Shown here: positions 9,094 through 63,646 of the stretch, in pieces
Layout of the letters: each line of letters begins with the position of its first letter
How positions within the stretch are numbered: the stretch's first letter is position 1
Assembly: GCA_009914755.4 (NCBI GenBank)
Contig: CP068257.2
Coordinates: forward strand, 14,912,001 to 14,976,000
Direction: 5' to 3'
Source: the human T2T-CHM13v2.0 reference genome, Homo sapiens
Length of the DNA: 64,000 bases
The notes under the pieces: model-generated
Told to the model about the DNA's origin: nothing
What the model saw: the letters and a program-made list of their open reading frames with translations, nothing else
Databases searched by the model: none
Translations under genes and position numbers: made by a program

Positions 9094-12000
9094 TCAAGTA
9101 AAAATATCTAGAAATATACTTTCCCCAAAATGTGTATATTTCCTTATGCCATTCTGCCAATTAAAAATTGTCAGTTCCTGGATGTTACTTGGATGGTGTT
9201 TTCCTAATACTAAAGCTACTTATTCTAGGCATTTGTGAGTTTTATCATTCTCAGGAAGAATAAATTAACTCAAGTGTCTTGCCTTTACTAATAATCTATA
9301 GAAGATATAATACATTACAAAACGAGATCTTCAAAGGCAATTTATCTATGTCTGTGGGTCAGCGGAGAGACATCAAGAGTTAGGAGGGAGTGTACCTGTA
9401 ACATTCTGAATAAGATTTTGATGTTAAAACCAATGTGGCTTGTTAGTCCGATATGTCCCCTCTATGCCACTAAAGATGGTGCCTACTCCTTACCACTCAT
9501 ACTTGCCATATTCTTTACCCATTTTTACTTGACTTTGTACCCCAAAGTTCCTCTTGTGGGCTATGTGTGGAATGTGATGGCTTTTAAAAACATAAATTGG
9601 GGAACAAGTGTGAAAATAAATATATGGACAACATTTTAAATATTCTAAATATTATAATTTAAACATCAAAAGAGTTATTGTATATGTTCAAGATTGAAAG
9701 TTAAAAAGTGAATATAAAATTCTAAATAATAATAACTATTTCAACATGAACCTAAAACTGTGCCTGTTGAACAGTGCATAGAATATTAAATAGAATTAGT
9801 AAAGAGTTACTTGAGTAGTGAATTACATCCTGCATTGTCAGCCTATGATATCTATGTCCATATATTTTGTAGCCTAGATTCATAAAATGTATATTTTTTA
9901 AAATCTTAACACTTTTCATCAAATGGAATGATTTGTTTTTAATTTGATTATGGATCAATTTTTAATTTGATTCTAGAGCCTACTTAATCATTGCTTTAGG
10001 TTCTTAAATTTCTTTTATAGAACATAGGTGAGCAGATTTTTAGGGTTTCCTTTTAGATGGTTCTGAGGTTTCTGTCCATGTTCAATACTATGAGTTTATA
10101 ACTTTACAATATTCTTTTGTCACTTGCCTAAAAGCAGGTTTGTTATTTTTCTTTTTCTCAAGGAAAGCTTTAGAGAGAGAATCTAGATCTTTTAAATTTG
10201 AAAGGCATTCATGATACCCAGTTACTTCCTCTAATGATTGACTACTGTTGTGAAACCTAATGTTAATATTTAAGAAGTGGAAAATTATGGATTGTATTGT
10301 AAAATAGTCAATTAAAAGAAAAGTATTTTTGTGTGTGGGAATCTAGCAACTTTCATCCCATAATCCTTAAATCAAGTTTAATGTATACTAAAAATATCAA
10401 GTTTTACTTTGAACTATTAAGATTAATACAAGACTCCCATGTTTTTTCAGATTTTCCCAATCTTCAATGTTCTAAGGGATTTACTCTGAGACTACTTAAA
10501 CCTTAACATTTTTGATGTTCTCATTTACTCACTGGCTGTTAAAATCTCAAACCTTGTGCATCAATACTAGGAGCTCTTACTTAAAATGATTAATTGTAAT
10601 GTTTTCAACAGTGAGCACTAATGTTTTTCCTTGGGGGAAAAAAAATCTTCCTTATATGTTTATGTGGTTCTCTTGCCTCTGTAGTTGACTTAGATTAATT
10701 TCTTTGCTAATTTTCTTGTTCAGTTGGATAAAAGAAAGCTTCGGGCTTTGTATTTCTTGAAAACCAAGAAAAGTAAGTATTACACATAAGAAAATATCCA
10801 ATTTTACCACTTCTTCCCTTGGGCAGTTGACCCGTGTGCACATGTGCATGCATAGCAATCTTTTGCAATGAACTCAGTTTATATATGAGATCTGTTTTTC
10901 AGTATTGTAGAAAGATATCTAATCTATTTGAAAATACATTGTCAGCACCTAGTGTTCCAAAACATAGATTGAATTTAGTGTGGGAATACCGCATAGTATT
11001 GGAAGAAAAGTAATTAAAATCATTTAGAAATTGTTTTGAAGAATGCATTGCTGCAAGGTGTCATAGCCATATAAACATGACACCACCATCTTATGGAATG
11101 TACAGAAAAGGGGTGTCTCTTGTGCCAAATAAACATTCTTTAATTAACGCTTCACAATATGTAGTGTGAACTTTCCTAGTCTGTGTTTATCCCTCCTGGG
11201 GCTGCTACTTTTAATGCCTCAAAAACTGTTGCCTGTATATATTCTCTTTCTGCTGGATCTTGGGATGAAGAATTGATTACAGGTGCATTTTCTCCTTGAA
11301 TCTGTCTAATAAGCTGAACTAAAACTACACTAATACAAGAAAGCAACAAGAAAGGTCTTCTTATGATGAATTAGTTGTGCTTATATACATATAAGAGTTA
11401 GTGAGGGCCACAAGAATAAACTGGCACAATAAACTATTTGTATTTGAACACTACTATTTGTATTTTAATATAATAATTACTTTGAATTCCATAATTAATA
11501 TACCTATACGTGAAACGTTTTCCGCTCAGCAAAGTCATAGACTTTGGGGGGAAAATGTTATTTTATTTTATTGTGAGGGTTTGAATAGGCATTTTGCTAT
11601 TCATTATCTATTTGCAGGGAAATGACAAGTTTTCAAAATGAAACAGTCTTTGTTACCTGTCTCTTTTGAAAGACTTACTCTCATGTTGTTTATTTAATTG
11701 TTTTGTTGGCATTAATCTTGCTTTTTTTTAAATAATGCATATTCCTTTTAATTATGTCTACTTATTTAAATAAAACTTTTAAATTGTGAATAGCTATGAA
11801 TCACCATATCCATATAACTAGAATATGAAAATCTTAAAAAATTAATGTGCTGATAATTATAATATTCCTGTTTCTTGCATTTGTTTTACATTAATACACA
11901 TTCTGAAAAAGAGGAAATGCTTATCTTGGGAGTGGCTTAAGTTGTTTTGGGCACTTTTTCTCAGTGATAGTCATATATTTTGGAGCAGCCAAAATTCATA

Positions 12001-30500: not shown

Positions 30501-31939
30501 GCGTTTGAGAGGTTTCTTTTTCCTTTTGCTTTCAAATCAGGAGCCTGTAGGAACTGATCTTAGAGATACATACCCTACTACCGATGCTTCTATCTCTTTA
30601 TAGGTTGTGTGATGTTTTCTTTGGAACCTCTGCGAATGGTTGTCCTTCTTGTTTGTTGCCACAGATCTGTTGCCAATCTGCTACCTTAGTTGAGCCTGCA
30701 GTGCCGCACTGCATGCTGGGATCTGTCTGTGTGAGTAAACTGAAATTTCTACAGCACCAGACAGCATTAGAGTTGGCTTGAGAATTGCCGTACTTTGCTT
30801 CCCTTTGTATGTATTTCTTGTATGCTGCCGAGTCACTGATGGCTAGCTCTGTCTGGCAAGTAATTCAAAAATGCTGTTTATGTAGAAAGGAAAGGTAGGG
30901 ACTTTACCACACTCTGTCATTAAAGGGAGCAATTGAAGAACAAAGGAACTGAGTAAATACCTATATATTGCCTTTTGTGTTGCGAAACACTGTAGCACAA
31001 ACACATTTGTGTTCAGCCAAATGTTTTACTTCCTTTTGTAATAACGCATATAGTAGGTTGTCTCCACATATGTACAAGAATCCATATTTTATTTAAACGT
31101 ATATAGTCAATTGTTCATATTTATAGGCTGCAAACATTTCTCAATCTCAAAGACTTTTACATATCCACTCCCACACAGCTATTTGTTATTATTTTAAAAG
31201 TTCTTAAATTAAAAAAAAAAATAAAATATACTAATATCTCTGTTGGTTGATTTTATTAAGCAACTTAGGATTTCAACACAGTTTAAATCATATTGATGAC
31301 TCAGATCCTGGCAGGTCTTACAATTCCTGTGAAATGAGAGCACAGCTAATAAAAATATTAAGCAATTACTTTTATTAAAATCATAGGGTTTTTTTCATTA
31401 TCACATAGAAATGATTGATCTATACAGATTGGTCTCACTCATGTGTCTTTTGGGCTGCTTGGGAGCTTCATGTAGAAGTGGAAAGTCCCCTTTGCTCTTC
31501 CTTCGACCAAGGTGGGGAAAATGAAGGCATAGAATACAATCTAGGGCTATTAAAGAATTGCTGGCATTACTTCTCTCTATCACGTGTGAGCCTGGCTGCC
31601 TGCTTCCTGAGGTAGGGGATCCAGGATGAGACTGTGCCGGAGCCTGTTTCCACAACTGCATTTGGAGATCCGTCTTATTGATTAGCGGGGGAAAGGGGTG
31701 GGGATCAGGAGTGTGAGGTGAGGGGAGGACCAACTGACGACTGGCTCAATGAAGCACAAGACATTTTCTTCCGGAAAGATGTCAAACAACTGAGAAACAG
31801 CCAGAGAGGAAGTAGAAAGGTGGAAAAATGAGGAGACCCTGGAAGAAATGAAGGCATTTCCTATGAGACAGCCTTGGGGCTTTTTTCTTTTCTTTCTTTT
31901 TTTTTGCTTCCATCATCTGACCTGCAAAGGCTAGAGTGA

Positions 31940-32222
31940 CAGCGTCATGCAAATGCTGCAGTCCAGCAGGTCTGGGAGAGGGTGGATGCTAGACTGTGAG
32001 TTAATGTTAATGATGAGCGCAGTGAAAATACCAGCCGCTGCCACCCCCTGCTCACAGAAGCGCTCTGAGTCAGCATCAGATGCTTTGCCTCGCCTCTCGC
32101 TGTGTATCTGTATGCCTGTGTGCGCGCGCGTGCTCGCTCGGGCATCCGTGTCTAGCCGAGGGGAGGGGGTGGCGTGTGAGTGCGTGGAGGGTAAAAGCCA
32201 GTCAGTCAGTGAGAAGCAAAGG
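31940..32222 (+). promoter_or_regulatory. Candidate CpG-retaining promoter or first-exon region ending at a consensus splice donor
   Basis: Octamer ATGCAAAT at 31948-31955. AP-1-type site TGAGTCA at 32067-32073. About 15 CpGs in 32033-32180 (gtgcgcgcgcgtgctcgctcgggcatccgtgtctagccgagg), which is unusual for this AT-rich window. GGGAGGGGG GC-box at about 32162. TAAAAG at 32193-32198. Then cagtcagtcagtgagaagcaaag|GTACGT, with the donor GT at 32223. Confidence 0.35.
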
Positions 32223-32826
32223 TACGTTGGAGAGCAACTAAAATCTGACTGATTTCCATCTTTGGAGCATCAGATGTATTCCCTAAGGAGGATGGGTCTC
32301 CGTGATGGGGGTGGTATAATTATGTTAATGTCATTTTTATGGAGGGGTGAGATTTTTCATTCTGATAATTGGTTGAATGCTATGGTCAAAAATTGTAAAG
32401 CCATATTCAGTTTTAGGGAAAAGCATGGACTTAGATCTAAGGGCTGTTTTATTTTTTCGCTTTTTGTGAGTGCTGCTTTTTTGTTTTTTTGGTTTTTGTT
32501 TTTTAACTATTTATTTTAAGCCATAAGTGATTCAGTATGGGAAATCAAATGATAAACAGAAAGAGATCTTATATAATGATGCATTACATCATGGAGCAGA
32601 ATATTTAAAGTCTTACAAGGCAGAGTAAAGATCTGGACAGGGGGTGGGGGGTGGTGGTTGGAAAGGGGTGTGGTACTAGGGTGGAGGAGGGGGGCCAATT
32701 ACCAAATATTTTGTGCAGTATAGCTTTCCTTGCAGCTTACTTGGAAATGGATGATTCACCTGTTCTACAGGAAAACATTCTAATTCTTTCCATTTTTTTT
32801 TTTTTCCTCCTCTTTTCCCTTTTAAG

Positions 32827-33000
32827 ATCAACCACCTCAGAAGAGCCAGATTCCACTTCTGTGGCCAGGACTTTTACATTATGGCTGGTCCGATTGTTTT
32901 ACCCTGCGTTCTATGCTACTAAACCTTGGATCATTCCTAAAGTACAAATTCTGTTCTCGAACCACAAACAAGGCTAAAAGATCGGAGGAAATTCAGTGAA
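32827..33000 (+). other. Candidate internal or terminal exon of a non-coding transcript, starting at a strong splice acceptor
   Basis: A 45-nt polypyrimidine tract (cattttttttttttttcctcctcttttcccttttaag) ends in AG at 32825-32826, and an exon-like segment follows (ATCAACCACCTCAGAAGAGCCAGATTCC...). Only a 13-codon ATG ORF (MAGPIVLPCVLCY) is present, so it is non-coding if real. The 3' boundary is undetermined. Confidence 0.25.
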
Positions 33001-36000
33001 TATACAGGATTGGGGTTGTGTATTTTTAAAAGTATTGAGCTTTATAATGTAATTATTCAAGAAATAGAATCATGGTTTTTTTATGATGTTGCCAGCATTT
33101 TAAATTACATGTTTATTAAGTGGCATTGCTCAAATAACTACAGAGTATGCGTGGAAATATTTGCTGTCTGAATAGTTTGGAGATTCAAAGAGAAAAATCA
33201 AGCTTCAGAGGTATTAAATTATGACATGCAGAAAAGTTTTTGTTTTGTTCTTAACTGCAACGGTATATATTTAAATCCGATTTAAAGTATTATATGTCCT
33301 GGGCCCACCTTACCAGTTGTGCTGTATAGCAGTGTAATGGGAAGCAAAATTTCAATTAGGGTCCCATTAACTGGCATATAATCCTTCTTTAATGTAATAG
33401 AGGCTATGGTGTTGCTGTACAAATCTGCTAGAAGCAGATTTTAACCCATGTTTAGTCTCTTTCTTTGGATCTAATGGAATGACTCTTAACTGTTCATTGT
33501 CTGCATTGTTTCTCATATTCTTCATTATTTTAAGGTCTGGAATTAGTCTATAAATGGTCGTCGTGATTACTCAGCTCATCCTAACTTTTATATATCATAT
33601 ATATTTCTACTGAAGTATTTTAAATAGTATTTAGAGGTAAAAGTCTAAGTGAACCCAACTGTAATTTCTAAGCTATCCTTATTTCTGGAAGAAGAATTCT
33701 ACCGCATCAAACCAGACTTTTCCTAGTCCCTGAGACCCTAACTTGTGAGGTATTTTAGTAACATCACAAGTCAGGCTCTTGGGACCTAGGCGGAGGGGAA
33801 CCAGCAGCTTTGGACCTTATTGATTGTCTGCAGTTACCACCAGAACAAAAGAACATACATAGATTCTGCCTAGGAGAAAAGAACAATGCTTTTCTTTATC
33901 ATCAGCAACGTTTTCACCATGACCCATCCCCAAAAATACTATTGTCAGAAACTGTACTCTAAAGTGATTACACAGTTGCACTGAAATAGCGTTTGTATTA
34001 TAACGATCATACAAAAGCAATATAAGAAACCTGTGTAAGAAGCAAAATTAAAATATAAGTGTTTTAAAATGCTTCTTTTGGTGCATTTTAAGGTGGCTAG
34101 TATAAGAGGATATCTCTTCAGTTAATGAAGAGAGGGGATTATATTTATAACTTTTCATATGCATTGAAATATATACATTAGCTACTTAAATAAATCCTGT
34201 ATGCCTCCATATAACTATGGCTCAGACTATGTCATATACAGCTATAAGCATGCTTGAGGCCTAGAAATAACATGATTTACAATCTTCTTTATTGACCCTA
34301 TTAGATTTTACTACCGATTTAAGAAGAATGCTGTTTTATACTTTGTATTTATTGCCAGGGCTTTTCTGAGTCTTCTATCCAACCAACATACTTTATATGT
34401 CTTAACAATTCTAACAATTATTTTGTTACGAGAGTCCAAGAGTGAAAGTTTCACCAATAATCTGGGAAAATATGTCTTTTTAAAATTTTTTACAGTTTAC
34501 TGTGTACATATCATGGGCCTACGTGAGATAAAACAGTAAACGCCACCTATGAAGTCAAACTGCTTTGACTAGCAACTGCATATGAACTGCATAGTTTTAG
34601 TTTTATAAGAATTTTAGCTTTATCGGAGGTAACTATTCCAACCATAAGTAATATGTCATATTTGAAAGTTTAATAGCCATTGCCACATCAGATATGTCTT
34701 TCTTGGAGATAGAATCAGTATGCTAAATCTATTTAAAAATTTTACAATAATGTTACAAATATCAAGATTCAAAATGGAGATGACAGACTTTCCTTAATAG
34801 AAGCAACAAAGTGGCTTCATTCTTTTAACTATTGCCTTAGATGGGTGCCATAAATTATGTGTCTTCTGCATTGTTAAAATAAATTTATGAATGTATTTTA
34901 GAATACTGTACGGAGTCTTTGTTCATCTTTTTAAAAATTTCTTATAATACCTACTTGAAATATTACAGAATACAAATCATCTATTAGTCATAGTTATTAA
35001 AAATTACTATAACAATATCATAAACATACACATCTATATAAAGCATGCAGAATATGTTTAAGCATGTATGCACACTGTACCTATTCAGATTCTTTATTTA
35101 TATCATCTACTTCATTTATCTAGAAGTTCTGAAATTTTAGGTGTGTGTATGTATATGTATAAATATAAGTTTTAAAGCTCCAAATGAAAGGAGGTAATAT
35201 AAACAGTAAAGAGCTTTGGTAGTATTTATCTTTTATTTCTTTTGACCTCATTCTCATTGGAATTGAGTATTTTTTAAAACCATAAGTTTCTTAATACAAA
35301 GAAATCTATGTATGTGTGTCTACATGTACACAGAAGCTTGATTACATTTAATAGCAATGTTCACACAATGGATCTGAAAGTACTTCTTGTAAAAAAGAAT
35401 ATCACATACAAGTATGTGTTTACTAACATCTGTTTTAACATGATCATAAATAATATCTGTGAAAGGTTCCATCAAGTTAGTTCCAAAACAATGTAAGGGG
35501 TAGATGTTTATTGGCTATAGTGATATCAGATATAGGTTATTCAAACGTGAAAATTTTTTAATGTTATCATATTCATGAACCACACTATATATTAACTTCT
35601 GTCTCATAAAAGAAATATACCAAAACTGAATTGAGAATGCAGTCATGTTTGTTCATTTTCACCATAAACATATAAAATGTTTTTTACTGATAATCCTGCA
35701 CAATTGGAACTTCTCTATGTAACCCTCCTATATGAACAGTCTTTCAAGAGCGTCATTGACAAAGCTTTTCTTTTACTTCATAAAGGTGTATATAGATTTA
35801 AGTGGGTGACTTTGCTTATGTAGGCTACTTTATGCTGTATGTGCATAGACAGATGCCACTTTTTCTGCATTTCTATCTCAGCTGTCACAGGATAATATTG
35901 TTTTAGGGCTTTATGATATGATTTGGAAAATCAGATCATACTAAGCTTAAAATAAAAAGGAGAGATCTACAACAAAGAGCGAGAAAATGATGTGTGTTGC

Positions 36001-39000
36001 ATGCAAAAAAAACAGTGATATTAACAATTCGATGGCTTCCTGGTTGGGAGACCAGCCTGAGCCAGACGCATATATTAAGGGCTGTCTGCTGCCGATGTGA
36101 GCTTGCTCAATGCGGTGGAAATGAGGAATCATCTCCTTTCTGACACCAGCTTATTTGTACATTTTAATTTTGAAATAGCCAATCACTGTTTTACATAAAT
36201 ATACTAACCCCTGCCTGATTCATTTTCTTTCCCATATTGTTTGTTAATTTACTGTGAACTTCAAGTTCCTTTTTTTGGCAAAAAAAATCATCATTCAACT
36301 TCAACATCTACCAAAGACCAATGAAGTATTAGCTTTTCTTTTGTCTCTTTTGTATTGCTCTGATAATATTGTGATATTCATGCTTTTAACTTTTAATCTC
36401 TGTAAGGAAAACATCAATTTTCCAAAATAGCATTTTTTAAAGCCTTTTAGGATCCATCAAGGAAGCCACTCTGGAATTTTGCCAAATCTAAATATGATTA
36501 TATTTCATTTCAGGGTTCATGGGATCAATATCTTTTTCAGTATAAAAGTCCCAAACACTTTAGTATTCCAGTGGAGCTACAGAAGAGGTGTAGAGATATT
36601 CTTAAATCATTTAAGCATTAGGCTACATTAATAGTGTCTTGAAGAGAAATAAGTATCTCAGGAGAATTATAGTACAAGTTAATTACTAATGAAATTAGAA
36701 AGGGTATGTTCTGCCTTAAACTCCTCTTCAAATGGACAGGCTGGTACATGTGCCTAGGCTTGGTCTAATACACCTTAAATATATAAACGGTTTTACAAGC
36801 TGTCATGTTTGGATGAGTTTGAGAAAAGCAGTATATAAAGGGTTAGCTAACGCCCAAATTTTCTTGCCATTTACACATGCAATGCAGCCTACATTTCTGT
36901 AGGCAGCAAATGCAGGCATCATTTTGATTGCTTGAATTCTTTTGTTTAATTTTTTACTAGACATTTAACTTAGCACTCAAATCCCACTGATCCCTTAGAG
37001 ACTGCATTTGGATAAGGAAAACAAAGTTCCTAATATAGAGAAGTTTAAAAAAAAAAAAAATCCTGGGCCCTTGTAAACATTTGAGAAATAGACTTTTAGT
37101 GTAGCGCTGCAAATACATATTTAGAGTGCAGAAACTTAGGTACCTTTATTATCTATCATCATCCTGGTTTTCTTATCTTTCAGTGACCAACTATAGAGTC
37201 GGTCACATATTTATTTCCTATATGTCTTTATTTCTTGAAAGGTTTAGTAAAAACAGTGTAAAAATTGACATATCTTCATAAAATGATTCACACCATTTCT
37301 TCAATGAGCTAGCTTCAATTTTCATTAAATGTTGCTTTTCTCCACGTCTCTACATGTTAAATGTAACTTTATGAAGTACATTAGCAGCCAATAATATTAA
37401 CTTGTATGTAATAGTTTACTTGTAGGAATTTGAAAGCAGGTGGAACTTGAAGGTAATTGAGATTAAGTGAATTTAAGATTAAATAGCTTCATTTTATATA
37501 AACAGTTAATTTCATGCATATTTTATGGACAACTTAAAAGTGAAAAATTCTGATAAGGTGAACTAAATTTTTCATTATTGATATAAGTAACGTGACTTTA
37601 AATCTGTTACCTTAATAATTAATTTCTAAACAAACAAAACAGGTATAAAAATAATCATGGACTATATTCATTAGGTCAAGTAAATAAGAATAAAAACTTC
37701 CTAGGTTTTGTCTTGGCCATATAAGGTCTTTGAGGTGTTTTGGGTTCTTTTGTGTTGATTGATAGATTTAACTTTGCCTCTCTTCTGAGAAGTTTCTCCC
37801 TCTTTGTCAATAGGTGTCTGATGATTTGTGAGCCTCAAGTGACTACTCTGTGGAATCATCTGTCCTTGCCTTTGAATTAGCTTTCCCTAGGCCATGAGTC
37901 AACATTAGTAGTTTATACATCCAAATTGGTAGGTCTTTATGAAATTCTTCTATGTATTCGTTCTAGACATATAAGTGAAGTATAAGAAATTATAGATTTA
38001 CATTGTGGTTGTTTTTACAGCTTCTGGACATCTTTGAGAAAATACTTGGGTGGCATTGAAACACTAGCCAATGGAAGCATTTGATTTTGTAGAATTTTGA
38101 AATGTAGTGCCTTACTCATAGTACACTTCCTAGTCTTGGGGGTGGGAAGACCAGTCTGTAGCTAACTTATTACTGTCTTATACATCATGCTAAAGCCCAG
38201 CCTGGGCATTTGTAAACCTCGGGGAGGTTTCTACTTTAGACAACAGTTTTTGTTGAGGGATTACACCACAGTCAGTTCCCTCCATTTCTCCCTCTCTTCC
38301 TGGCCCCCCTCCCACCCAACATGGAGCCTTTTCAACTCTTCAAAGAAGTGGGAAAAAAAAGTAGACTCTTTATTAATGGCAGAAAACAAACTGGCTGCTG
38401 TACTTCCGAGGCAGCTCTCTAATAATAAAGCAGAGTAGGCACTGCAACAAAGAATTCTTGAATGTACTAAATATATAGGGAAGCCTATTTAAATTCACCA
38501 GAGGGGCTTAGAGGACAAGCAGCAGAAAGTTTAGAATTCAATTCAAGCCATGCCAGAAAATGAAAATGTACTTAAAAAAGGATTTCTGAAACAATTGTTC
38601 AAAGAAATGTCAACTTTTAAGGTTCTTTCTAGAAGAATGAAATTTGTACTCTAATTTATGTGGTGACTTTTTCAATTAGAGAGGAAAAGTGATTAACAGA
38701 ATCTCAAAGGAATTGTATCTTATGTTTAAAGAAAACGTGTTTTCTTTCCATAGGATGTTCTCTAGTGAGGGCCACCTAGTGCACTGACTAAAAACAACCA
38801 AATATATTTATGGGACAAACAGATAATGTATTTTTTTTTTTTTTTAGCAATTAGACATAACAAATGCTCATCTTACTTTGACAGAAAAATATTCAACTTT
38901 ATATTCTTTCTAGTTCATTTTCTCACATTCAGCTCTACGATTTAAAATATTTTAATTGTAACTCTGAAAGAGCAATTTGCTGATAAATAATAGGACTATG

Positions 39001-39190
39001 TGTTTCTAAATTTAAGAGATAAAAAAGTGATCCCTACCTTATCTCTTAGTGATTGAGTCAAGAAATTATCGTTGCCCATTATTTACCTATCTATAAGACA
39101 TGTGTTTCTATAAGGAATACCCACATCTATAAGAATATATATTTTATTAATCACAATGTTCACTTTCTTTATAAAAACTGCTTATAAAGA

Positions 39191-39554
<364 letters not shown>

Positions 39555-40793: not shown

Positions 40794-42620
40794 TGATGGC
40801 TACAGTTATAAAATAAGGATGTTAGATTCTTATTCCATATCCTTTACCTTGTTGCTCTTTTGTTTATCATAGTATGACCTGGGTGGTTTTTAACATTTTA
40901 CCATCAAGAACTACTATTTAGGAATCTTTCTCAATGAAAAAGAGATTAATTTACTATGAATAATGGTTCTAATGCAAAACATTTTGGGCTTTTGTTGTGA
41001 TGCAGATGAGCAAAGCCATAAATATAATTTAGAGAGTTTGAAAATGTATTTTAACATTCACAATTCTTCTCACTAATTAATCAAATTACAAAATTATGCT
41101 GTGGCTTCCAGTATATTAAAATAAGTTGTCATATTTGGAACATCTGTTTATGGTCCTATTATGAATATGTATTTCTAAAGGGCTGAAATATAGATTGCCA
41201 TAAATAATGTTTGCAATTTAGTCCGTGGAAAAATGATACCTACTTCCCTTCACAATGCTTGTTTATTTCCCACGAAGTAAATCTTCCAGATTGTATTTTA
41301 TCATTTTCTTATCAAGACGGAGGAAAAAAGACTCGGGTCTTACTTAAGCCTTGCTGATTGGTTAAGAAAAGAGATGGCTGTCATCGGCAGCCTTGCCAGA
41401 CACTGTACCGTGGCTCCAGACAGTCAGCTGGTACTATCGCTTTGTCTCAACTATAAATCACAGTCTCGTAATGGCCAAGGCTGACACCTTGACATTTTCA
41501 AGAAGAGTAAAAGACCTGATTTGAATGGAAATCAATTTCATTTCACAAATCTTGGGTGACTACTCCAAGCCTTTTCTTGTGTCTTCTTGAGACTTATTTG
41601 GGATTTTCATGATCATCAGAGGATTATTTGAGTGTTATATTATGACTTTTTAAAGCTATAAAACCATATTCTTACTTCCTTCTTCATTCCTAACATGAGA
41701 AAATTGATTTTTAAAGTTTTATGTAAGAAAAATCACTAATAAGCACTGATAGTTTTTAAAATGGCAATAGCAGCCAATGCTGTTTAGTTTTGCAAAACTT
41801 TTGTAAAATGTTCTCTGATTTAAAAGTACAAGCTGTGTACACACGTATCCAGATTAACCTTTGATTACCTGATAATAAATATTAGCAATTATCAAGTGAT
41901 TTTGCACTTCAATCAAGCAGGTCTCAATGAAACTTAAAATCTTTTGAAAAGTATTTTCACTTTTACGTTCTTAGACATAACAAGAAAGTTTTAAGCCTTA
42001 AATTTTAAGTATTCTAGAGCCAATGATGAGTAAAAAGTACTTAATTATGTTAGATGGGACCTTGCATTAAATTGCATCCGATCTTTTGACCATTCGACCC
42101 AAGTGACACAGAAATAATTTCATACTTTACTAGTATGAAAAGAAATTCTTTTTGGGGCTTTTAGGAGCTTGGCATTGAATGTTTAAAATGTTTAATATAC
42201 TTATTCTGTTACATCTTTCTCCTTTAGAAGAATACTACCATTTCTTTAAAAGCACGGAGGGGAAGACATTTCTTCTTTCCTGGTATTTTGTCTTGATCCC
42301 TCTCCAAGAGTGATCTAAGCTCAGTAAAGCCTTGGTCTTCTCGACACAATATTAATGGAAAATGTTAACCTTACCTATCTCTCTTTTTTAAGTATGGAGG
42401 GATTACCACAATGCCTTGTGATGATTTCTCTTCATCTTCATTGTTAGTCCTCAACTTTGTCTCAAATCATAATTTTAAACAGATAAACTTTGATTGTTAA
42501 ATTCATTATTTTGTAAAGCCCTATGAACGAGTGAAATTACACACAGTTACAAACAGGATTCCCAACCCTTAAATCTTTTTATTCATCCTTCTATCCATCT
42601 ACTCATTCATTCATAATCTA

Positions 42621-50404: not shown

Positions 50405-51099
50405 ACAGGCATATGTCCCGCATAGACTGTACTCTATTTTAATCCGTGCCTTTCATTCTCAAACTCTAGATGACAAGAGCACCTCAAAGGCAGCAGCCTC
50501 AAGGAGCAGCCATGGCCCCAGACTTGTCGCACGGATGCAGAAAACTTAATGGAGGAGGCTGAGGTCAGAATGGGAAGAGTTTTTAAAAAATAAAAAGGGG
50601 AGCTAATATGTGAGGAACTGATTGCTGTGCATTATTTTCCACTGAACAGACCTTCTTTTAACTTCTAATCTCAAGCACATAGCAGCTGTTGTTTTCATAT
50701 TAAAGATCAGTAAGTGTTTGTTGAATGAATGTATAAATTCTTCCCCAATCTCTGTTCCATGTAATAAGAACTAAGTTAGCATTCAATTATAAAGAGGACT
50801 TAGAAAGTCTGCAGACATTTTTGATCAAAAATCCTTTTAACTGTCTTCTTATGGTTCCCGGTAACACCTAAGCCCAAAAAACTCAGGTCATTTCTTGCCT
50901 GTACTGTTGCAATAGCCTCATAATAACTAGTCTTCTCCTTTATCAACCACAGTCGTCTCCGCTACACAAAGAAGAGAGGGTGCTAATCTAAAGTGTAAAT
51001 TATTTTAAATCAGCACCCTTCTTGTAATTTCCCAGTGGTTTTTCCTGTCATAAGAATAACATGCAAAATTCCTTGCTTGCAAAGCCAGGTATGACCTTG

Positions 51100-51525
51100 C
51101 CCCGTCTACCTTACTGGCATCGTCTCTCATGACTCTTCCCCTTTTTCACTCTCCATCTTGCCTTTTCCCAACCATGCCTGCTAGTGAGCCTTAGCCCTTG
51201 TGTTTTCTCTGCCAGGGATGCATGACTGGCTTCTTTACTTTATTCTGATCTCTCTGCTCAAATGTCATCTTTTTAGAGATAGCTTTCCTAAACATCTTTA
51301 AAAGTACCCCATGAACTGTGAAACACCTTTCCTGCTTTTTCTTCATAGTACTTATCACTTCCTGATATTATGTTAGACAACAAGCAAATAAGTATATGCT
51401 GTTCCCACTAAAATATAAGCTCCATTTGAACAGGAGCCTTGATTATTCCTGAGTATACCCCTAGTGCCCAGAACCTAGTAGGGCTTTAATAAATATTAGA
51501 TTCATTTGTTGAATGAAAAAATGAA
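51100..51525 (+). mobile_element. Ancient LINE2/MIR-type 3'-end repeat fragment
   Basis: cctgctttttcttcatagtacttatcacttcctgatattatgttagac...ctaaaatataagctccatttgaacaggagccttgattattcctgagtatacccctagtgcccagaacctagtagggctttaataaatattagattcatttgttgaatgaa is colinear with the common L2/MIR 3' motif (...ttttctccatagcacttatcacc...ctagaatgtaagctccatgagggcagggac...ccagcgcctagaacagtgcctggcacatagtaggtgctcaataaatatttgttgaatgaatgaa). Confidence 0.45.
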
Positions 51526-54500
51526 TGAATAATTGAATAAAGATATCCAGGTAGAGTGTCCGGGCAGCCCAACCTATGTGAAGCCAGTACAAGAATGTTT
51601 CTGTGACATAGTGAGTGCAATTATTCCTCTAAATGATGAACTTGCATGAGTACACAAGGATAAAATTAAGCACGTAGTTTAGATTTCTGCAAGTCTCTTC
51701 CTCAGATTGAGGAAAAACAAAGAAATTGAGCTTATTCTCACCTCATTCTTACATGAACTAAATCCAGAATAAAGCATCATTTAAATACCAAGCACATCCC
51801 TACCTCAGCCACTCATGGAATACTTTATCTGTAAAGGGACAGATAGATAGTAAATATTTTTGGCTTTGGGGACCGTACAGTCTGTGTCGCCACTACTCAG
51901 CACTTCTGTTGAGGTGTGGAATCAGCCCTAGACAACACATAAACAAATGGGTGTGGCTGTGTTCCAATAAAATGTTATTTATAAAACTAGGAAATCAGCA
52001 GATTTAGTCCACAGGCTGTAGTTTGCTGACCCTTGAATTAGAGAGTCTTCCCCAAATCCTCTTCCCAAGTTATTGAAAGAATGCCCATAGGACCATAGCT
52101 CCCTCACCTGGTTCTTTCAAGAAATGAGACAAATTCAGGGATGGTTGGAGGGTGGAACGCCTACCTGTGACATGACTATTGAGCCTGATTTCTTTCCTTT
52201 TATCTCTTTAAAGTGAGTCAGGTCTTAACTTTAAACTGTCTCTAAAGTGGCAATAACTGGGCCATGTCAAATACTCCCAATGACAAAATTTCTTCTTGGA
52301 GAATGAATGAGGGTTGCATACAGTGGTGTGTTGGTAAATGTTTAGCAACTGGCTCTCTTACTGATTTCTGTAGTGTAAATTCTCCCATCCTGGCCATCTG
52401 AAACTACCAATATGATGTCACTTGATGTAGAGTTGGGAAAAGACAGTCTCTTGAATAAGTATGAGCTGGTTCCAGCCCACTGCTGAACACATATTTAAAA
52501 GCTACAATAGCTCTGCTCACTGCCATTGCAGAGTCTGGAGGAAAGAGTAGCAGGCTTGATAGGAGCAATTGGCTGAATAATCTTTTGCAATGCCAATAAA
52601 TAATGAAAAAGTATATAAATATAACGCTGTATAGAAAGCTCTCAAGTTCAGTGTTTGGTTAAAATACATACTCAGTAAATGGTAGCTATTATTGTCTTAG
52701 TTTAAGTTATTGCAAGCATTAAAATTAAATGTTTAGCTACAGACTCAATCCAGTTTTAATGTCATTGTGTTAATAAGGCCTCTTAACATTGAAGCAACAA
52801 AGATAAAGGAATTTTTTTGTAGCTATTCACGATTCTGCCCAGCTCAAGGTAAAGATAGCAACAAAATACTCCAACCAGAATAAAAGAAGTCTCCACTTGA
52901 CTGCAGCTCTTCACAACACTTCACAAGGGTCAAGCTGTGTTAGTTTCCTTCAGTGTTAAACAGAATGCATCTTAAGAGAATAGTTCAATTATTGATTGAA
53001 TAGTAGGTTCAAGTTGACTATAATCCCAACTAATACACTCTAAGACCAGGGATGGGCCGACAGAAGGGTAAAGTTTTCCACTCAAGTCTCGAGGCAAACA
53101 CTCAGATAGAAGTAGTAATATGGATGCCTTCTATTATTTGGTCACATACAATACTGTTCCAGCCCAGTTGTGCAAAACTGGTGAAATAAAAGGCAAAAAT
53201 ATTGACAACAGTTTGGGTAACTGGATTCCAAAATGGGCATCCATCTAAGAGAAATTAATGAAAAAAAAGCATATGGACCTTGAAATACATTAATACACAG
53301 TTTAGGTTTAAACACTCAGTTTTTATTAGAAAAGACTAACTTATCCTGTTTTGAACACTACAAAAGTGCTTTCTGAACCATTTACTCTCAAACCTCCTCC
53401 ACCCATTCCCCTCCATCTATAACGCTTTCTGCACATCTGTAAAAGGTATGACTTAGTGTTTGGTCTGTGAAATAAGGTTAAAAAGGAAGCATTTCTTTTT
53501 ACATTCTAGCTAATGTTGATATTTTTCTCATGCTTCTATTAGCACATAATTCAGATACATTAGTTTTGAAGTTTTGAATCTTCTCTGCTTCTTGAGGGCT
53601 CTCTGTTCTAGATCAACATGATCTGTGGAACACCAGCCAAGTCCTGGGCAGAACCCTCCCCGTTGTCCAAATATTACTGAATCAGTTGAGTTTTCTCTGT
53701 TGTCAATGAATTATTCCACATGTTTCTTTGCTACATTTTTTTTGGCTTTCTGTTCACAGTAAATATAGCCTTTGTTTTTAAAAACTTCTATTATGAAAAT
53801 TCCAAATATATGCAAATTAGAGAGAATAGCATAATGAACCTCTATGTGCTTATCACACATATAGGTTCAACTAATTAAATTATATCAATTTATGGCCAAT
53901 CTGGTTTCATTTATAACATCATTCGCTCATTCCTAACTCCCTGGATTATTTGATTGACATGTTTCTAAAGTTCCTTTTAATCTGTAGGTTCCCCCTCTCA
54001 TTTAATCTTTTGCAACTTATTCATTGATGAAACTGGGTTATTTGTCCTTTATTGTTTCTCTCATTCTGAAATATGCTGTAATGTCATTAACCATATTCTT
54101 CTTTCCTGTATTTTCTGTAAGCTTTGAGCTAGGCAGAAATATTTTAATCAGATTCCTTTTTTTTTCTTTTAGCAAGATTTCTTCATAAATAATATTGTAT
54201 GTGTTCATGAAAATAGAAATAAAAATAGAAATAAAGAAGAAATAACAGAAAAAGGACAGAAATTGTTAAAATTTTTTTATGAAAACAGATAGTAAATAAC
54301 ATTGTAATAAATCCCAACAGAACATAGAGAACCTGACTTTATTGACGTTAGTGGGAGGAGGTTTGTGATTTTAAAACTATATATTATGGTTATGTCATCT
54401 AAAAATCAAATATTCAAGCACATATATTAAAATTAGTCATCATTACATTTTTCCAAAATAAAAAATAAAACTAAACCAACATTAACCATCAGTGATTCCA

Positions 54501-55723
54501 TCAACTGAGCAAGTTTGAGTAGCATTACCCTAGTGAATATCAGACTATCGATTATTCTATTCATGTACCTGAAATTGGATAACAGTATGAAGAATTTCCT
54601 GAACAAATACAAGATACATATTTAGACCTTCTCCAGTCTAGAGGAATACTTGCTTCTTGTCAGAATGAAGAATGAGGAGTATTGTTTTAGAACTGGACTT
54701 CTTTGATGACCCTTAAGTAAACCAATATGGACCAGATAACAGGAGCATTTCAAAGCATCAGAATTTTGGGGGATTCTTGTGGTGGAGCACAATGAGGCAT
54801 TCCAGCCTACTCTAAGAAAATAGTTCATCCCTGTCAATATCCTGGGAAGCAGAGTTCAGATAAAACTATGAAGACACAATGTAAAATGTCAGTTGTCTTT
54901 GCAAAACATTAAGTATATGTGTATTCTTGGGAATGGGGGGAAGTATGTAATTATTTGTGGCTTTTCAAAAATGAATGGCTTTTGAAAAGCCACCTCTGTA
55001 GTGCCTTTTTGATTCCTCTTACGAAAAAAACAAACCTGGAAAAATTAGTAGTCTTTAATTTATAGTTAGTTAGCACATTATGACAGAACTTTAATCTCAT
55101 ATCTCACTAGGTAGAAATGAAATAATACATTTTCCCATTATATATTGATTGGAGTTAATTAAATATAGTTAGTATTCCATTTACATTGATGCTTTTTGTT
55201 CAAATCTATGGTATTATGTATAAATATGCCAATTATTCAGTAAAACATCACTAAAATTAAACCTATATTGTTATGAAGCTGTTAGAAAATATCTTCTTTG
55301 AATTCTGAGAGCTGTATTATATTAGTTTAACTAGTTATCTTGAAATTCTGAAGTTCCTTGAATCTATTTTAATTTTGTATCAGGAATTGGAGAGGTTTTT
55401 CCAGAAAAGTGTTACTTAAATGCATCAAATGCAATGTGGGAATTTTGACCCACTTCTTGTATTTCTATTTTCCTGCTGTTTTTGCCCCCAGAGGAAGAAT
55501 ATAAACATTTTGCTTATTGTAACACATTGCTTCATTATGATATATTATTGTTACCATTTTTTTTAAAAAAGAATGTTTCTAGGTTTTAATTAAGCTCCTT
55601 CACCTAATATGTAATTTTAAAGTTATTATTTCATATAATATCTAACTTGCCACAGTTAGGAACCTGGAGCAGACTGAACCTTTGGACAAAATGATGCCGT
55701 TATTATGAAAACAGAAAAGCATA

Positions 55724-57196: not shown

Positions 57197-57762
57197 TATT
57201 TATAATTTTTTGAGGAAACTTTGTACTTTTTCCCATAGCTGTACCATTTTGCATTTCCACCTACAGTGTTCAAGAGTTCCAGTTTCTCCACATCCTTACC
57301 AATACTTGTCTTTTTTTTTTTTTAATAGCCATCCTGGCAGATGTAAGGTGATATTTCATCACAGTTTTGATTTGCATTTCCCTGATAACTAATGACATTG
57401 GACTTTTTTTTATATATCTGCTGGCCACCTGTATGTCTTCTTTGGAGAAACATCTATTCAAGTTTCTAGTTCATTTTTAAATTGGATTATTTGCTTTTTG
57501 CTATTGAGTTGTTTGAGTTCCTTATCTATTTTGAAGCTTAACCCTATATCAAATGGGATTCTTATATTTTTGTTTCATATTTTGTAATATATCAGGTCCA
57601 TGAAATTAGCTATCTTAAGTAAGTTGCTTTTGTGTTGTTTCTTATGACAATTCTGATTAGAATATTAATACAAACGTGAAATGCAGCTTTTACCAACAAA
57701 TGGGCTAGTTTTTATTGAATCAATAAAACCCATATTTTGAGAGTTTTACTCAAAAGAACCTA

Positions 57763-58977
<1,215 letters not shown>

Positions 58978-63149: not shown

Positions 63150-63646
<497 letters not shown>

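What the first reader, a model, noticed from the sequence alone, without database searches (positions are those of the whole stretch)
31940..33000. CpG-retaining promoter-like patch with a consensus splice donor, followed 600 bp downstream by a strong acceptor: candidate unannotated (lncRNA-type) transcript
Seen in sequence. In a window that is otherwise AT-rich and CpG-depleted, 32033-32180 holds about 15 CpGs (gtgcgcgcgcgtgctcgctcgggcatccgtgtctagccgagg), a GGGAGGGGG box, a perfect octamer ATGCAAAT (31948) and a perfect TRE TGAGTCA (32067). The patch ends in ...gtgagaagcaaag|GTACGT at 32222/32223, a good 5' splice-site match. At 32780-32826 a 45-nt pyrimidine tract ends in ...ttttcccttttaAG|ATCAACCACCTCAGAAGAGCC. 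No ORF longer than 13 codons starts with ATG in the downstream exon-like block. Retention of CpGs implies germline hypomethylation, and the splice signals fit a spliced non-coding RNA. Alternatively it could be an enhancer with chance splice-like motifs.
Basis: partly seen in the sequence, partly recalled or inferred. Interest (0 to 1): 0.6.

Follow-up and report, generated by a model that had tools for sequence, protein, structure and literature searches.

The report
Conserved exon pair upstream of MIR125B2
The CpG-rich patch and its splice sites are real, but they are not an unknown gene: they form a deeply conserved non-coding exon pair inside the known microRNA host gene MIR99AHG, about 1.5 kb upstream of the miR-125b-2 hairpin, and most likely serve as a local promoter and first exon for that microRNA.

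Summary
The CpG patch at 32018-32183 is the only CpG-dense stretch in the 64 kb that is not an Alu. Exon 1 ends at 32221 (AAG|GTACGT) and exon 2 starts at 32827.

The 32221-to-32827 junction is present in public gene models: human Celera hCG2036655 (100% identical to my spliced translation), RefSeq "uncharacterized LOC" models in gibbon, macaque, marmoset, squirrel monkey and golden jackal, and GenBank models in squirrel, pangolin, dolphin and whale.

Published MIR99AHG/LINC00478 primers map exactly at 50.5-54.3 kb on the same strand. The miR-125b-2 hairpin sits at 33711-33799, about 900 nt downstream of the acceptor. A macaque model that starts upstream of miR-99a/let-7c splices into the same acceptor.

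The block is extremely conserved: 216 nt are identical in human, squirrel and pangolin, and the run crosses the exon-intron boundary. The open reading frame is not conserved and has no Pfam domain.

Best reading: an alternative proximal promoter and first exon, plus a shared exon, of the pri-miR-125b-2 / MIR99AHG transcripts. This is already known in kind and largely already annotated. The TSS itself is not shown here.

The parts
31725..31929 (+). Conserved upstream flank and candidate core promoter. It contains ETS-like CTTCCGG and GAGGAAGT motifs and a pyrimidine tract of variable length.
   Evidence: Identity to squirrel and pangolin is 0.84-0.98 in 50-nt windows; sequence. The motif reading is my inference.
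31947..31954 (+). Octamer ATGCAAAT. It also holds the ATG of the non-conserved 141-codon spliced ORF.
   Evidence: invariant in all 7 aligned sequences.
31990..32221 (+). Exon 1. The 5' end is uncertain: the human Celera model starts near 31990-31992, primate RefSeq models include ATG 31947, and a weak acceptor at 31928-31929 cannot be excluded. The 3' end at 32221 is firm.
   Evidence: Junction present in P0019, P0016, P0001, P0002 and others; 0.96-0.99 identity to squirrel, pangolin and L006.
32018..32183 (.). CpG-dense patch: 15 CpGs at 32018-32183 (17 human CpGs over the 31940-32230 interval used for the conservation count). It is the only non-Alu CpG-dense region in the window.
   Evidence: All 17 human CpGs are kept in squirrel and pangolin; only 6 of 17 are kept in the divergent ortholog L004, and most of its losses are to TG or CA.
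32066..32072 (+). AP-1 / TRE motif TGAGTCA inside exon 1.
   Evidence: invariant in 7 species.
32119..32334 (.). A 216-nt run identical in human, squirrel and pangolin. It spans the 3' part of the CpG patch, the donor and the first 113 nt of intron 1.
   Evidence: No excess RNA folding energy (z = -0.31).
32222..32826 (+). Intron 1 (GT...AG, 605 nt). It is as conserved as the flanking exons.
   Evidence: 0.93-0.94 identity to squirrel, pangolin and L006.
32780..32826 (+). Polypyrimidine tract and acceptor AG (32825-32826).
   Evidence: Only + strand site in the window with at least 36 of 40 pyrimidines before an AG. The AG is conserved. It is used both by exon 1 and by the upstream 49-nt exon in macaque isoform X5.
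32827..33171 (+). Exon 2. The start is firm. It extends at least to 32977 in most models and to 33171 in the marmoset model. The 3' end is unknown and it may run on to the hairpin.
32761..32766 (-). ARE half-site TGTTCT, equal to published ARE2 (-945/-950) of the 'miR-125b-2 promoter'.
   Evidence: coordinates match PMC8096848.
32952..32957 (-). ARE half-site, equal to published ARE3 (-754/-759). It lies inside exon 2.
33246..33251 (-). ARE half-site, equal to published ARE4 (-460/-465).
33711..33799 (+). pre-miR-125b-2 hairpin; mature miR-125b-5p is at 33727-33748.
   Evidence: Exact match to the mature sequence; sequence; fold -35.8 kcal/mol, z = -3.6; only sub-threshold Rfam matches; invariant arms in the orthologs.
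10724..10772 (+). A 49-nt internal exon (acceptor ...ttgttcag|, donor AAA|GTAAGT). In macaque isoform X5 it is joined directly to the acceptor at 32827.
37814..37928 (+). Cassette exon of MIR99AHG variant NR_136545. The boundaries are inferred from splice consensus.
   Evidence: Published NR_136545-R primer maps at 37882-37904; sequence.
50471..54251 (+). Common exon and last exon of the main MIR99AHG/LINC00478 isoforms. There is an optional donor at 50563|50564. The LacRNA 3' end is near 50.6 kb and the full-length 3' end primer maps at 54226-54251.
   Evidence: Primers from PMC10559167 and PMC9926633 Table S2 map exactly; sequence.

Best explanation
The finding is a genuine, deeply conserved non-coding exon pair: exon 1 (about 31990 to 32221), a 605-nt GT-AG intron, and exon 2 (from 32827). 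It lies inside the known microRNA host gene MIR99AHG (LINC00478/C21orf34, human 21q21) and 1.5-1.7 kb upstream of the miR-125b-2 hairpin (33711-33799) on the same strand.

Exon 2 is a shared exon. Transcripts that begin upstream of miR-99a/let-7c (the 'tricistron' primary transcript) splice into it, and so does exon 1.

The CpG-dense patch with its invariant octamer and AP-1 sites is most likely a proximal, alternative Pol II promoter and first exon. It would give a short primary transcript that carries only miR-125b-2, letting that microRNA be expressed independently of miR-99a/let-7c.

Shown here: the splice junction, the locus identity, the position and strand of the hairpin, the conservation, and the lack of coding constraint. 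Inferred: that transcription starts at the patch, and that exon 2 transcripts continue through the hairpin.
For: Junction:
- The spliced translation retrieves gene models carrying exactly the 32221|32827 junction. These include human Celera hCG2036655 (126/126 identical) and models from Nomascus, Macaca, Callithrix, Saimiri, Canis aureus, Ictidomys, Manis, Sousa and Balaena.

Locus identity:
- MIR99AHG qPCR primers from PMC10559167 and LINC00478 primers from PMC9926633 Table S2 map exactly at 50473-50547, 50602-50627, 51168-51585, 53625-53649, 54226-54251 and 37882-37904, all consistent with a + strand gene.
- Mature miR-125b-5p is at 33727-33748 (+) and the hairpin folds well.
- The three published AREs of the 'miR-125b-2 promoter' (-945/-950, -754/-759, -460/-465; PMC8096848) fall exactly on TGTTCT sites at 32761, 32952 and 33246.

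Shared exon:
- In macaque locus L008 the order is: first coding exon of isoform X5, miR-99a, let-7c, the 49-nt exon, exon 1, exon 2, miR-125b. Isoform X5 joins the 49-nt exon to the same acceptor.

Promoter-like character:
- It is the only non-Alu CpG-dense patch in 64 kb.
- It is the conservation maximum of a 24-kb alignable region, 0.98-0.99 identity in 32000-32250.
- The partial CDS of the human Celera model implies a transcript 5' end near 31990.
- The candidate acceptor at 31928-31929 is weak: it did not reach my 36-of-40 pyrimidine cut-off and has A at position -3 (by eye).

Extension toward the hairpin:
- The marmoset model reads exon 2 unspliced to 33171.
- Conservation of about 0.9 or higher (0.88-0.99 in 250-bp bins) runs without a break from 31750 to 34000 and includes the hairpin.

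Literature:
- A fragment directly upstream of the hairpin has reporter activity and binds AR (PMC8096848).
- LINC00478 behaves like an immediate-early gene in CAGE time courses (PMC6119861). This would fit the conserved AP-1 site, but that link is my inference.
Against: - No CAGE, 5'RACE or RNA-seq data could be consulted, so the TSS is not demonstrated.
- Primate RefSeq models include ATG 31947, upstream of the Celera 5' end. A conserved AG at 31928-31929 preceded by a pyrimidine tract could make exon 1 an internal cassette exon.
- The established view is that all three microRNAs come from one polycistronic transcript with three TSSs upstream of miR-99a. No TSS next to miR-125b-2 was reported (Emmrich 2014, PMC4003278).
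- The forward primers for the three RefSeq isoform groups, which represent the 5 TSSs, in PMC9926633 do not map in the window. Exon 1 is therefore apparently not one of the 'main' RefSeq first exons.
- No gene model seen here runs from exon 2 through the hairpin.
- The nearest AATAAA downstream (34189) is not conserved.
- The intron is as conserved as the exons. This points to a DNA-level regulatory role that does not require the patch to be a TSS.
Confidence: 0.68

Rival explanations
1. Exon 1 is only an internal cassette exon of the long MIR99AHG or tricistron transcripts. It would be spliced in through the AG at 31928-31929, with no transcription starting here. The CpGs would survive because the sequence is under strong purifying selection, not because it is hypomethylated.
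For: - A conserved AG follows a pyrimidine tract that is kept in composition but varies in length in 6 of the 7 aligned species; in L004 most of the tract is absent.
- Primate models include sequence upstream of the Celera 5' end.
- Upstream exons of the same gene do splice into this neighbourhood.
- The literature places all described TSSs upstream of miR-99a.
- Non-CpG bases in the block are as invariant as the CpGs.
Against: - The putative acceptor is weak: AAG, with a pyrimidine tract interrupted by purines, and it is not among the strong sites.
- No model seen joins an upstream exon to 31930. Macaque isoform X5 skips exon 1 altogether.
- The human Celera transcript appears to begin inside the block.
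- A CpG-dense, GC-rich, TF-motif-rich block at the conservation peak is typical of a promoter.
Confidence: 0.22
2. The block is primarily a conserved cis-regulatory DNA element (an enhancer or conserved non-coding element) of the miR-99a~125b-2 / MIR99AHG regulatory landscape. The spliced RNA would be a by-product of enhancer-associated transcription with no role of its own.
For: - Conservation ignores exon boundaries: 216 identical nt cross the donor into the intron, and intron identity (0.93-0.94) equals exon 2 identity.
- There is no excess RNA structure (z = -0.31).
- Homeodomain-like TAAT repeats, the octamer and the AP-1 motif are invariant.
- The surrounding 24 kb holds several other peaks at or above 0.9 identity.
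Against: - The splice sites are used and conserved in many mammals.
- The acceptor is shared with the long pri-miRNA transcript.
- Enhancer and promoter roles are not mutually exclusive. This reading complements the best explanation more than it excludes it.
Confidence: 0.2
3. It encodes a small protein of 141 aa, as the RefSeq 'uncharacterized protein LOC...' and GenBank 'hypothetical protein' models assume.
For: An ATG-initiated spliced ORF of 141 codons is intact in human, gibbon, macaque, squirrel monkey and squirrel.
Against: - Indels that are not multiples of three shift the frame in pangolin, dog/jackal, cetaceans and the species of L003, L005 and L006. The middle of the 'protein' is read in different frames, while the DNA stays 86-98% identical over exon 1.
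- Marmoset has a frameshift near the end.
- The divergent ortholog L004 has 2-nt and 10-nt indels in exon 2.
- There is no Pfam domain.
- The intron is as conserved as the ORF.
Confidence: 0.03
4. It is a free-standing, unannotated lncRNA unrelated to neighbouring genes, or 5' exons of a Sprouty-3-like gene (the pangolin annotation).
For: The pangolin model KAI5281840 is named 'Protein Sprouty-like 3'. The region looks gene-poor.
Against: - The window lies within MIR99AHG, next to MIR125B2.
- The acceptor is shared with the tricistron transcript.
- There is no Sprouty domain in any model and no SPRY3-like coding exon in the window (the query sequence was from memory).
- Public models already exist.
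Confidence: 0.02

Closest known systems
[quoted passage not shown]
   Same: Same locus and strand. Published gene-specific primers map in the window. It is multi-exon, alternatively spliced, non-coding, with several alternative first exons (PMC9926633: 14 exons and 5 TSSs in the 12 main isoforms).
   Different: Exon 1 and exon 2 of the finding could not be shown to be among the RefSeq 'main' exons. The forward primers for the three isoform groups lie outside the window. The human annotation itself could not be consulted.
The miR-99a~125b-2 'tricistron' primary transcript (Emmrich et al. 2014, PMC4003278)
   Same: The macaque isoform X5 model starts about 1.7 kb upstream of miR-99a, spans let-7c and splices into the acceptor at 32827, just upstream of miR-125b-2. 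That is the architecture expected for the polycistronic transcript.
   Different: The described TSS1-3 are all upstream of miR-99a. The finding's exon 1 would add a start site that serves only the distal member, miR-125b-2.
Published 'miR-125b-2 promoter' (AR-responsive region within 1 kb upstream of the hairpin; PMC8096848)
   Same: It overlaps the finding. ARE2 lies in intron 1 next to the acceptor, ARE3 lies in exon 2, and the coordinates match to the base.
   Different: That work defined the 'TSS' as the 5' end of the pre-miRNA, and its reporter used a 745-bp upstream fragment. It does not include the CpG patch or exon 1 at -1.5 to -1.7 kb and does not describe the exon-intron structure.
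Proximal promoter of the paralogue miR-125b-1 in MIR100HG (chr11)
   Same: The paralogous cluster has a promoter region studied directly upstream of pre-miR-125b-1. It contains octamer sites bound by OCT4 (PMC3763434), which parallels the invariant octamer here.
   Different: It is a different locus. Sequence homology between the two upstream regions was not tested because no chr11 sequence was available. In that study pri-miR-125b-2 was not consistently OCT4-responsive.
Ultraconserved elements / conserved non-coding elements overlapping exon-intron boundaries
   Same: 216 nt are identical in three mammalian orders and straddle a splice donor.
   Different: The formal definition (at least 200 bp identical in human, mouse and rat) could not be tested. 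The most divergent ortholog available (L004, species unknown) is only 0.92-0.98 identical over the core.

Membership tests
MIR99AHG / LINC00478 locus | Published gene-specific primers map uniquely, on one strand and in the expected order | tested here: met
   Primers from PMC10559167 and PMC9926633 Table S2 match exactly at 37882-37904, 50473-50547, 50602-50627, 51168-51585, 53625-53649 and 54226-54251.
MIR99AHG / LINC00478 locus | The finding's exon 1 and exon 2 are exons of an annotated human MIR99AHG transcript (RefSeq or GENCODE) | not testable with these tools
   No human annotation was available. Indirect evidence only: the human Celera model hCG2036655 has the junction, and macaque isoforms link exon 2 to upstream exons of the cluster.
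Primary transcript of MIR125B2 | miRNA hairpin on the same strand, downstream, within the same conserved block | tested here: met
   pre-miR-125b-2 is at 33711-33799 (+). Identity stays at about 0.9 or higher (0.88-0.99 in 250-bp bins) from 31750 to 34000.
Primary transcript of MIR125B2 | Continuous transcript from exon 2 through the hairpin | tested here: inconclusive
   The marmoset model reaches 33171 unspliced. No model seen reaches 33711, and no conserved poly(A) signal lies between them.
RNA polymerase II promoter / TSS | Mapped 5' ends (CAGE, 5'RACE) and promoter chromatin | not testable with these tools
   The only indirect evidence is the 5'-partial CDS of the Celera model, which starts at codon 16 (about 31992).
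CpG island | Gardiner-Garden and Frommer criteria: at least 200 bp, GC at least 0.5, o/e at least 0.6 | tested here: met
   32001-32200 has GC 0.59 and o/e 0.87. The longest compliant span is 31890-32385 (496 bp), right at the thresholds.
CpG island | Takai-Jones criteria: at least 500 bp, GC at least 0.55, o/e at least 0.65 | tested here: not met
   The longest span that meets even the laxer criteria is 496 bp at GC 0.50. PMC10559167 states that there is no CpG island in the MIR99AHG promoter, but it does not say which promoter sequence was examined.
Spliced GT-AG intron | Canonical GT...AG, and the junction seen in transcript-based models | tested here: met
Long non-coding RNA | No reading frame conserved across species and no protein domain | tested here: met
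   Frame-shifting indels; no Pfam match at E up to 1.
Ultraconserved element (Bejerano et al. 2004) | At least 200 bp 100% identical in human, mouse and rat | tested here: inconclusive
   216 bp are identical in human, squirrel and pangolin. Mouse and rat sequence could not be obtained.
Sprouty family (from the pangolin product name) | Cysteine-rich Sprouty domain (PF05210) | tested here: not met
   No Pfam match for P0002 or for the human ORF. No SPRY3-like exon in the window.
Imprinting differentially methylated region | Parent-of-origin-specific CpG methylation | not testable with these tools
   The only basis is the literature statement that MIR125B2 is paternally expressed in human brain and that no DMR is known (PMC10014956).

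The most novel reading that the evidence does not exclude
The CpG patch could be a miR-125b-2-specific promoter whose allele-specific methylation underlies the reported human-specific paternal expression of MIR125B2 in brain (PMC10014956). That paper explicitly leaves the controlling CpG element unidentified. The patch is the only non-repeat CpG-dense sequence in the 64-kb window, which covers about 34 kb upstream and 30 kb downstream of the hairpin. At least one mammalian lineage has let it decay by CpG-to-TpG changes (L004 keeps 6 of 17 CpGs). A species difference in CpG content at this element could therefore match a species difference in imprinting.
Probability: 0.08. Interest if true: 0.6.

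Novelty: already known. Interest (0 to 1): 0.25.

Why it matters
miR-125b is a heavily studied regulator in haematopoiesis, leukaemia on chromosome 21, p53 control, neuronal function and imprinting. Knowing which promoter feeds which copy matters when interpreting expression and methylation data.

The result re-files an apparent 'unknown lncRNA' as part of the MIR99AHG / MIR125B2 transcription unit. It shows that published work on the 'miR-125b-2 promoter' used the region within 1 kb upstream of the hairpin (a 745-bp reporter fragment). That work therefore left out the far more conserved CpG-dense block at -1.5 to -1.7 kb. That block is the obvious place to test for miR-125b-2-specific transcription and methylation.

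Tried and rejected
- Rfam gathering scan of the whole window found nothing. It also missed pre-miR-125b-2, which scores below the family thresholds, so an empty Rfam result is not evidence that no miRNA is present.
- SPRY3 / PAR2 hypothesis, prompted by the pangolin product name. No SPRY3 or TMLHE coding exon is in the window (protein queries were from memory). There is no Sprouty domain. PMC6591651 gave no support. Rejected.
- My first guess was that the patch is the classical 5' TSS of LINC00478. It was rejected when primers showed that the window is the 3' end of the gene and contains miR-125b-2.
- Literature searches for hCG2036655 and LOC101178714 found nothing. Searches for a sequence-defined MIR99AHG promoter gave no sequences. 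Primer hunts in PMC9502606 and PMC8087685 were unproductive. Sun 2014 by DOI was not held.
- Gene ranges returned by the look-up of encoding contigs are CDS extents only, so they gave no UTR or TSS information.
- I tried to identify the species of the Logan contigs. No rodent SINEs are in L004 or L011. Both carry the human-type miR-125b-2-3p, so by my memory of the mouse sequence they are not mouse.
- A metagenome scan for the mouse-type hairpin found nothing, so the state of the CpG patch in mouse remains unknown.
- RNA structure as the reason for the invariant 216 nt has no support (z = -0.31). With no sequence variation, covariation cannot be tested.
- The poly(A) signal at 34189 as the 3' end is not conserved.
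Full report
**1. What is in the sequence**

The window is primate DNA: 35.6% GC, CpG observed/expected 0.25, 22 Alu copies and an L1 fragment.

- Octamer ATGCAAAT at 31947-31954.
- TGAGTCA at 32066-32072.
- GGGAGGGGG at 32161.
- Fifteen CpGs in 32001-32200 (GC 0.59, o/e 0.87); the stated interval 32033-32180 holds 13.
- Donor AAG|GTACGT, with the exon ending at 32221.
- A tract of 39 of 40 pyrimidines ending in AG at 32825-32826, so the downstream exon starts at 32827.

On chance:
- The octamer and the TRE occur in the window at the frequency expected from shuffles.
- Donors matching 8 of 9 consensus positions occur 17 times on the + strand.
- The acceptor is unique at my pyrimidine cut-off.
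- Every other CpG-dense 200-bp window overlaps an Alu.

So the CpG patch and the acceptor are the two features that stand out.

**2. The splice is real**

Joining 32221 to 32827 creates an ATG-initiated ORF of 141 codons. I used it only as a probe. A search of the protein collection returned gene models that contain exactly this junction (...SEKQR|STTSEEP...):
- Ground squirrel KAG3283762 (96% identity over the full length).
- Pangolin KAI5281840.
- RefSeq models from Nomascus (LOC101178714), Macaca nemestrina, Callithrix (LOC128930370), Saimiri (LOC141582058) and Canis aureus (LOC144301757).
- Sousa and Balaena models.
- Human Celera protein hCG2036655 (EAX10040.1), which is 126/126 identical to my spliced translation.

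The other hits are unspliced genomic ORFs that read from exon 1 into the intron.

The Celera CDS is 5'-partial and begins at codon 16. This implies a human transcript whose 5' end is near 31990-31992. The marmoset model reads exon 2 unspliced at least to 33171.

**3. It is not coding**

- The middle of the 'protein' is read in different frames in jackal, pangolin, cetaceans and several unidentified mammals. The cause is 1-, 2-, 4- and 5-nt indels in DNA that is otherwise 86-98% identical.
- Marmoset is frameshifted near the 3' end.
- The most divergent ortholog has 2- and 10-nt indels in exon 2.
- No Pfam domain is found, and in particular no Sprouty domain, despite the pangolin product name.

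**4. Where it is**

From memory of Celera accession ranges I guessed 21q21 and tested the guess with published primers.
- The MIR99AHG qPCR pair of PMC10559167 matches exactly at 50473-50492 and 50528-50547.
- Table S2 of the LINC00478/LacRNA paper (PMC9926633) places the reverse primers of all three isoform groups and the 5'RACE primer in the same exon.
- The same table places the LacRNA 3' end near 50.6 kb, the 3'RNA probes at 51.2-51.6 kb, a 3'RACE primer at 53625 and the full-length reverse primer at 54226-54251.
- An NR_136545-specific primer maps at 37882-37904.
- The group-specific forward primers do not map in the window.

The window is therefore the 3' part of MIR99AHG, with the gene on the + strand.

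The mature miR-125b-5p sequence is at 33727-33748. The 89-nt hairpin at 33711-33799 is the miR-125b-2 precursor (it matches the miRBase hsa-mir-125b-2 sequence as I remember it). It folds to -35.8 kcal/mol (z = -3.6). Rfam reports it only below threshold.

As an independent check, the three androgen-response half-sites published for the 'miR-125b-2 promoter' at -945/-950, -754/-759 and -460/-465 (PMC8096848) fall to the base on TGTTCT at 32761, 32952 and 33246 when counted from 33711.

The finding therefore lies 0.9 kb (acceptor) to 1.7 kb (patch) upstream of MIR125B2 on the same strand.

**5. Relation to the long primary transcript**

Macaque isoform X5 (P0007) joins an upstream exon to the same acceptor. 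In human that exon is 10724-10772, with acceptor ...ttgttcag| and donor AAA|GTAAGT.

In the 59.6-kb macaque locus L008 the order is:
- first coding exon of X5 (4001),
- miR-99a (5707),
- let-7c (6438),
- the 49-nt exon (33060-33113),
- exon 1 (54620-54895),
- exon 2 (from 55495),
- miR-125b (56397).

This is the architecture expected for the polycistronic 'tricistron' transcript. Emmrich et al. described it with three TSSs, all upstream of miR-99a (PMC4003278).

Exon 2 is thus a shared exon. Exon 1 is an alternative upstream partner located next to miR-125b-2.

**6. Conservation**

- Human 31518-33500 is 90.7-90.8% identical to squirrel and pangolin, and 84% identical to a more divergent unidentified mammal.
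- In a 24-kb comparison the maximum lies in 32000-32250 (0.98-0.99). Identity of about 0.9 or higher (0.88-0.99 in 250-bp bins) runs from 31750 to 34000 and includes the hairpin.
- A 216-nt run (32119-32334) is identical in human, squirrel and pangolin. It crosses the donor into the intron.
- Intron 1 (0.93-0.94) is as conserved as exon 2 (0.92-0.93).
- The invariant run has no excess folding energy (z = -0.31).
- The octamer, TRE, G-box, donor and acceptor are invariant or nearly so.
- All 17 human CpGs are kept in squirrel and pangolin. The divergent ortholog L004 keeps 6, and most of its losses are to TG or CA.

This pattern indicates constraint on the DNA itself (protein binding, promoter or enhancer function) in addition to the splice signals. 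It also means that CpG retention cannot be read simply as hypomethylation.

**7. Interpretation**

Firmly shown:
- A conserved, spliced, non-coding exon pair belongs to the MIR99AHG / miR-99a~125b-2 transcription unit and sits immediately upstream of MIR125B2.

Most likely (about two in three):
- The CpG-dense block is an alternative proximal promoter and first exon. It would give a miR-125b-2-only primary transcript.
- Supporting points: the Celera 5' end, the weakness of the only candidate acceptor upstream of exon 1, the position at the conservation peak, the motif content, and published reporter activity of the adjacent sequence.

Main rival:
- Exon 1 is a cassette exon, and the block acts as an enhancer-type element.

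These readings can only be separated with 5'-end and chromatin data that the tools here do not provide.

**8. Novelty**

The transcript is in public gene models, the locus is one of the best-known miRNA host genes, and the adjacent sequence has been studied as a promoter. I therefore rate the finding as already known.

Two points may be useful:
- Published promoter constructs stop short of the most conserved, CpG-dense block.
[quoted passage not shown] This patch is the only non-repeat CpG-dense sequence in the window. That link is speculative and untested.

Noticed in passing
window 33711-33799 (+): The pre-miR-125b-2 hairpin is present, but the whole-window Rfam scan at gathering thresholds does not report it. 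Locally it scores only 28 bits (mir-10), 24.5 bits (mir-2003) and 21 bits (lin-4), all far below their cut-offs. An empty Rfam result should not be read as 'no miRNA here'.
   Followed up: yes
window 10724-10772 (+): A 49-nt internal exon with strong splice sites. In macaque isoform X5 it links an exon upstream of miR-99a/let-7c to the acceptor at 32827.
   Followed up: yes
window 37814-37928 (+) and 50471-54251 (+): These are MIR99AHG exons located by published primers. One is an NR_136545-specific cassette exon. The other is the common or last exon, which has an optional donor at 50563|50564 and the LacRNA poly(A) site near 50.6 kb (AATAAA at about 50590).
   Followed up: partly
window 23000-23750, 36000-36250, 36750-37000, 38250-38750, 41000-41500: Further conservation peaks at 0.87-0.96 identity to pangolin and squirrel, on an unusually high background of 0.7-0.85 across about 24 kb. 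This is a dense cluster of conserved non-coding elements whose roles were not examined. An octamer also sits at 23006.
   Followed up: no
L001 (pangolin KAI5281840) 10001-10889: The pangolin GenBank model of this non-coding exon pair is named 'Protein Sprouty-like 3'. It has no Sprouty domain and no relation to SPRY3, so this is a misleading annotation that can propagate.
   Followed up: yes
window 20788-21168: Overlapping ORFs translate to a repeating peptide (…YIYYICTI… / …LHILYMYN…) in a 25% GC stretch. This indicates an AT-rich tandem repeat or minisatellite.
   Followed up: no
L004 about 2260-2400 (orthologous to window 32100-32170): In one divergent mammalian ortholog of unknown species the CpG patch is replaced by TG/CA-rich sequence, with only 6 of 17 human CpGs kept. 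The flanking octamer, TRE and donor stay intact. The CpGs are therefore dispensable in at least one lineage.
   Followed up: partly
window 57760-58743 and 22 sites listed: An L1 ORF2-like fragment on both strands and 22 Alu copies. The youngest-looking Alus (94-96% identical to an AluY consensus written from memory) are at 121-400, 39190-39443 and 63395-63646.
   Followed up: no
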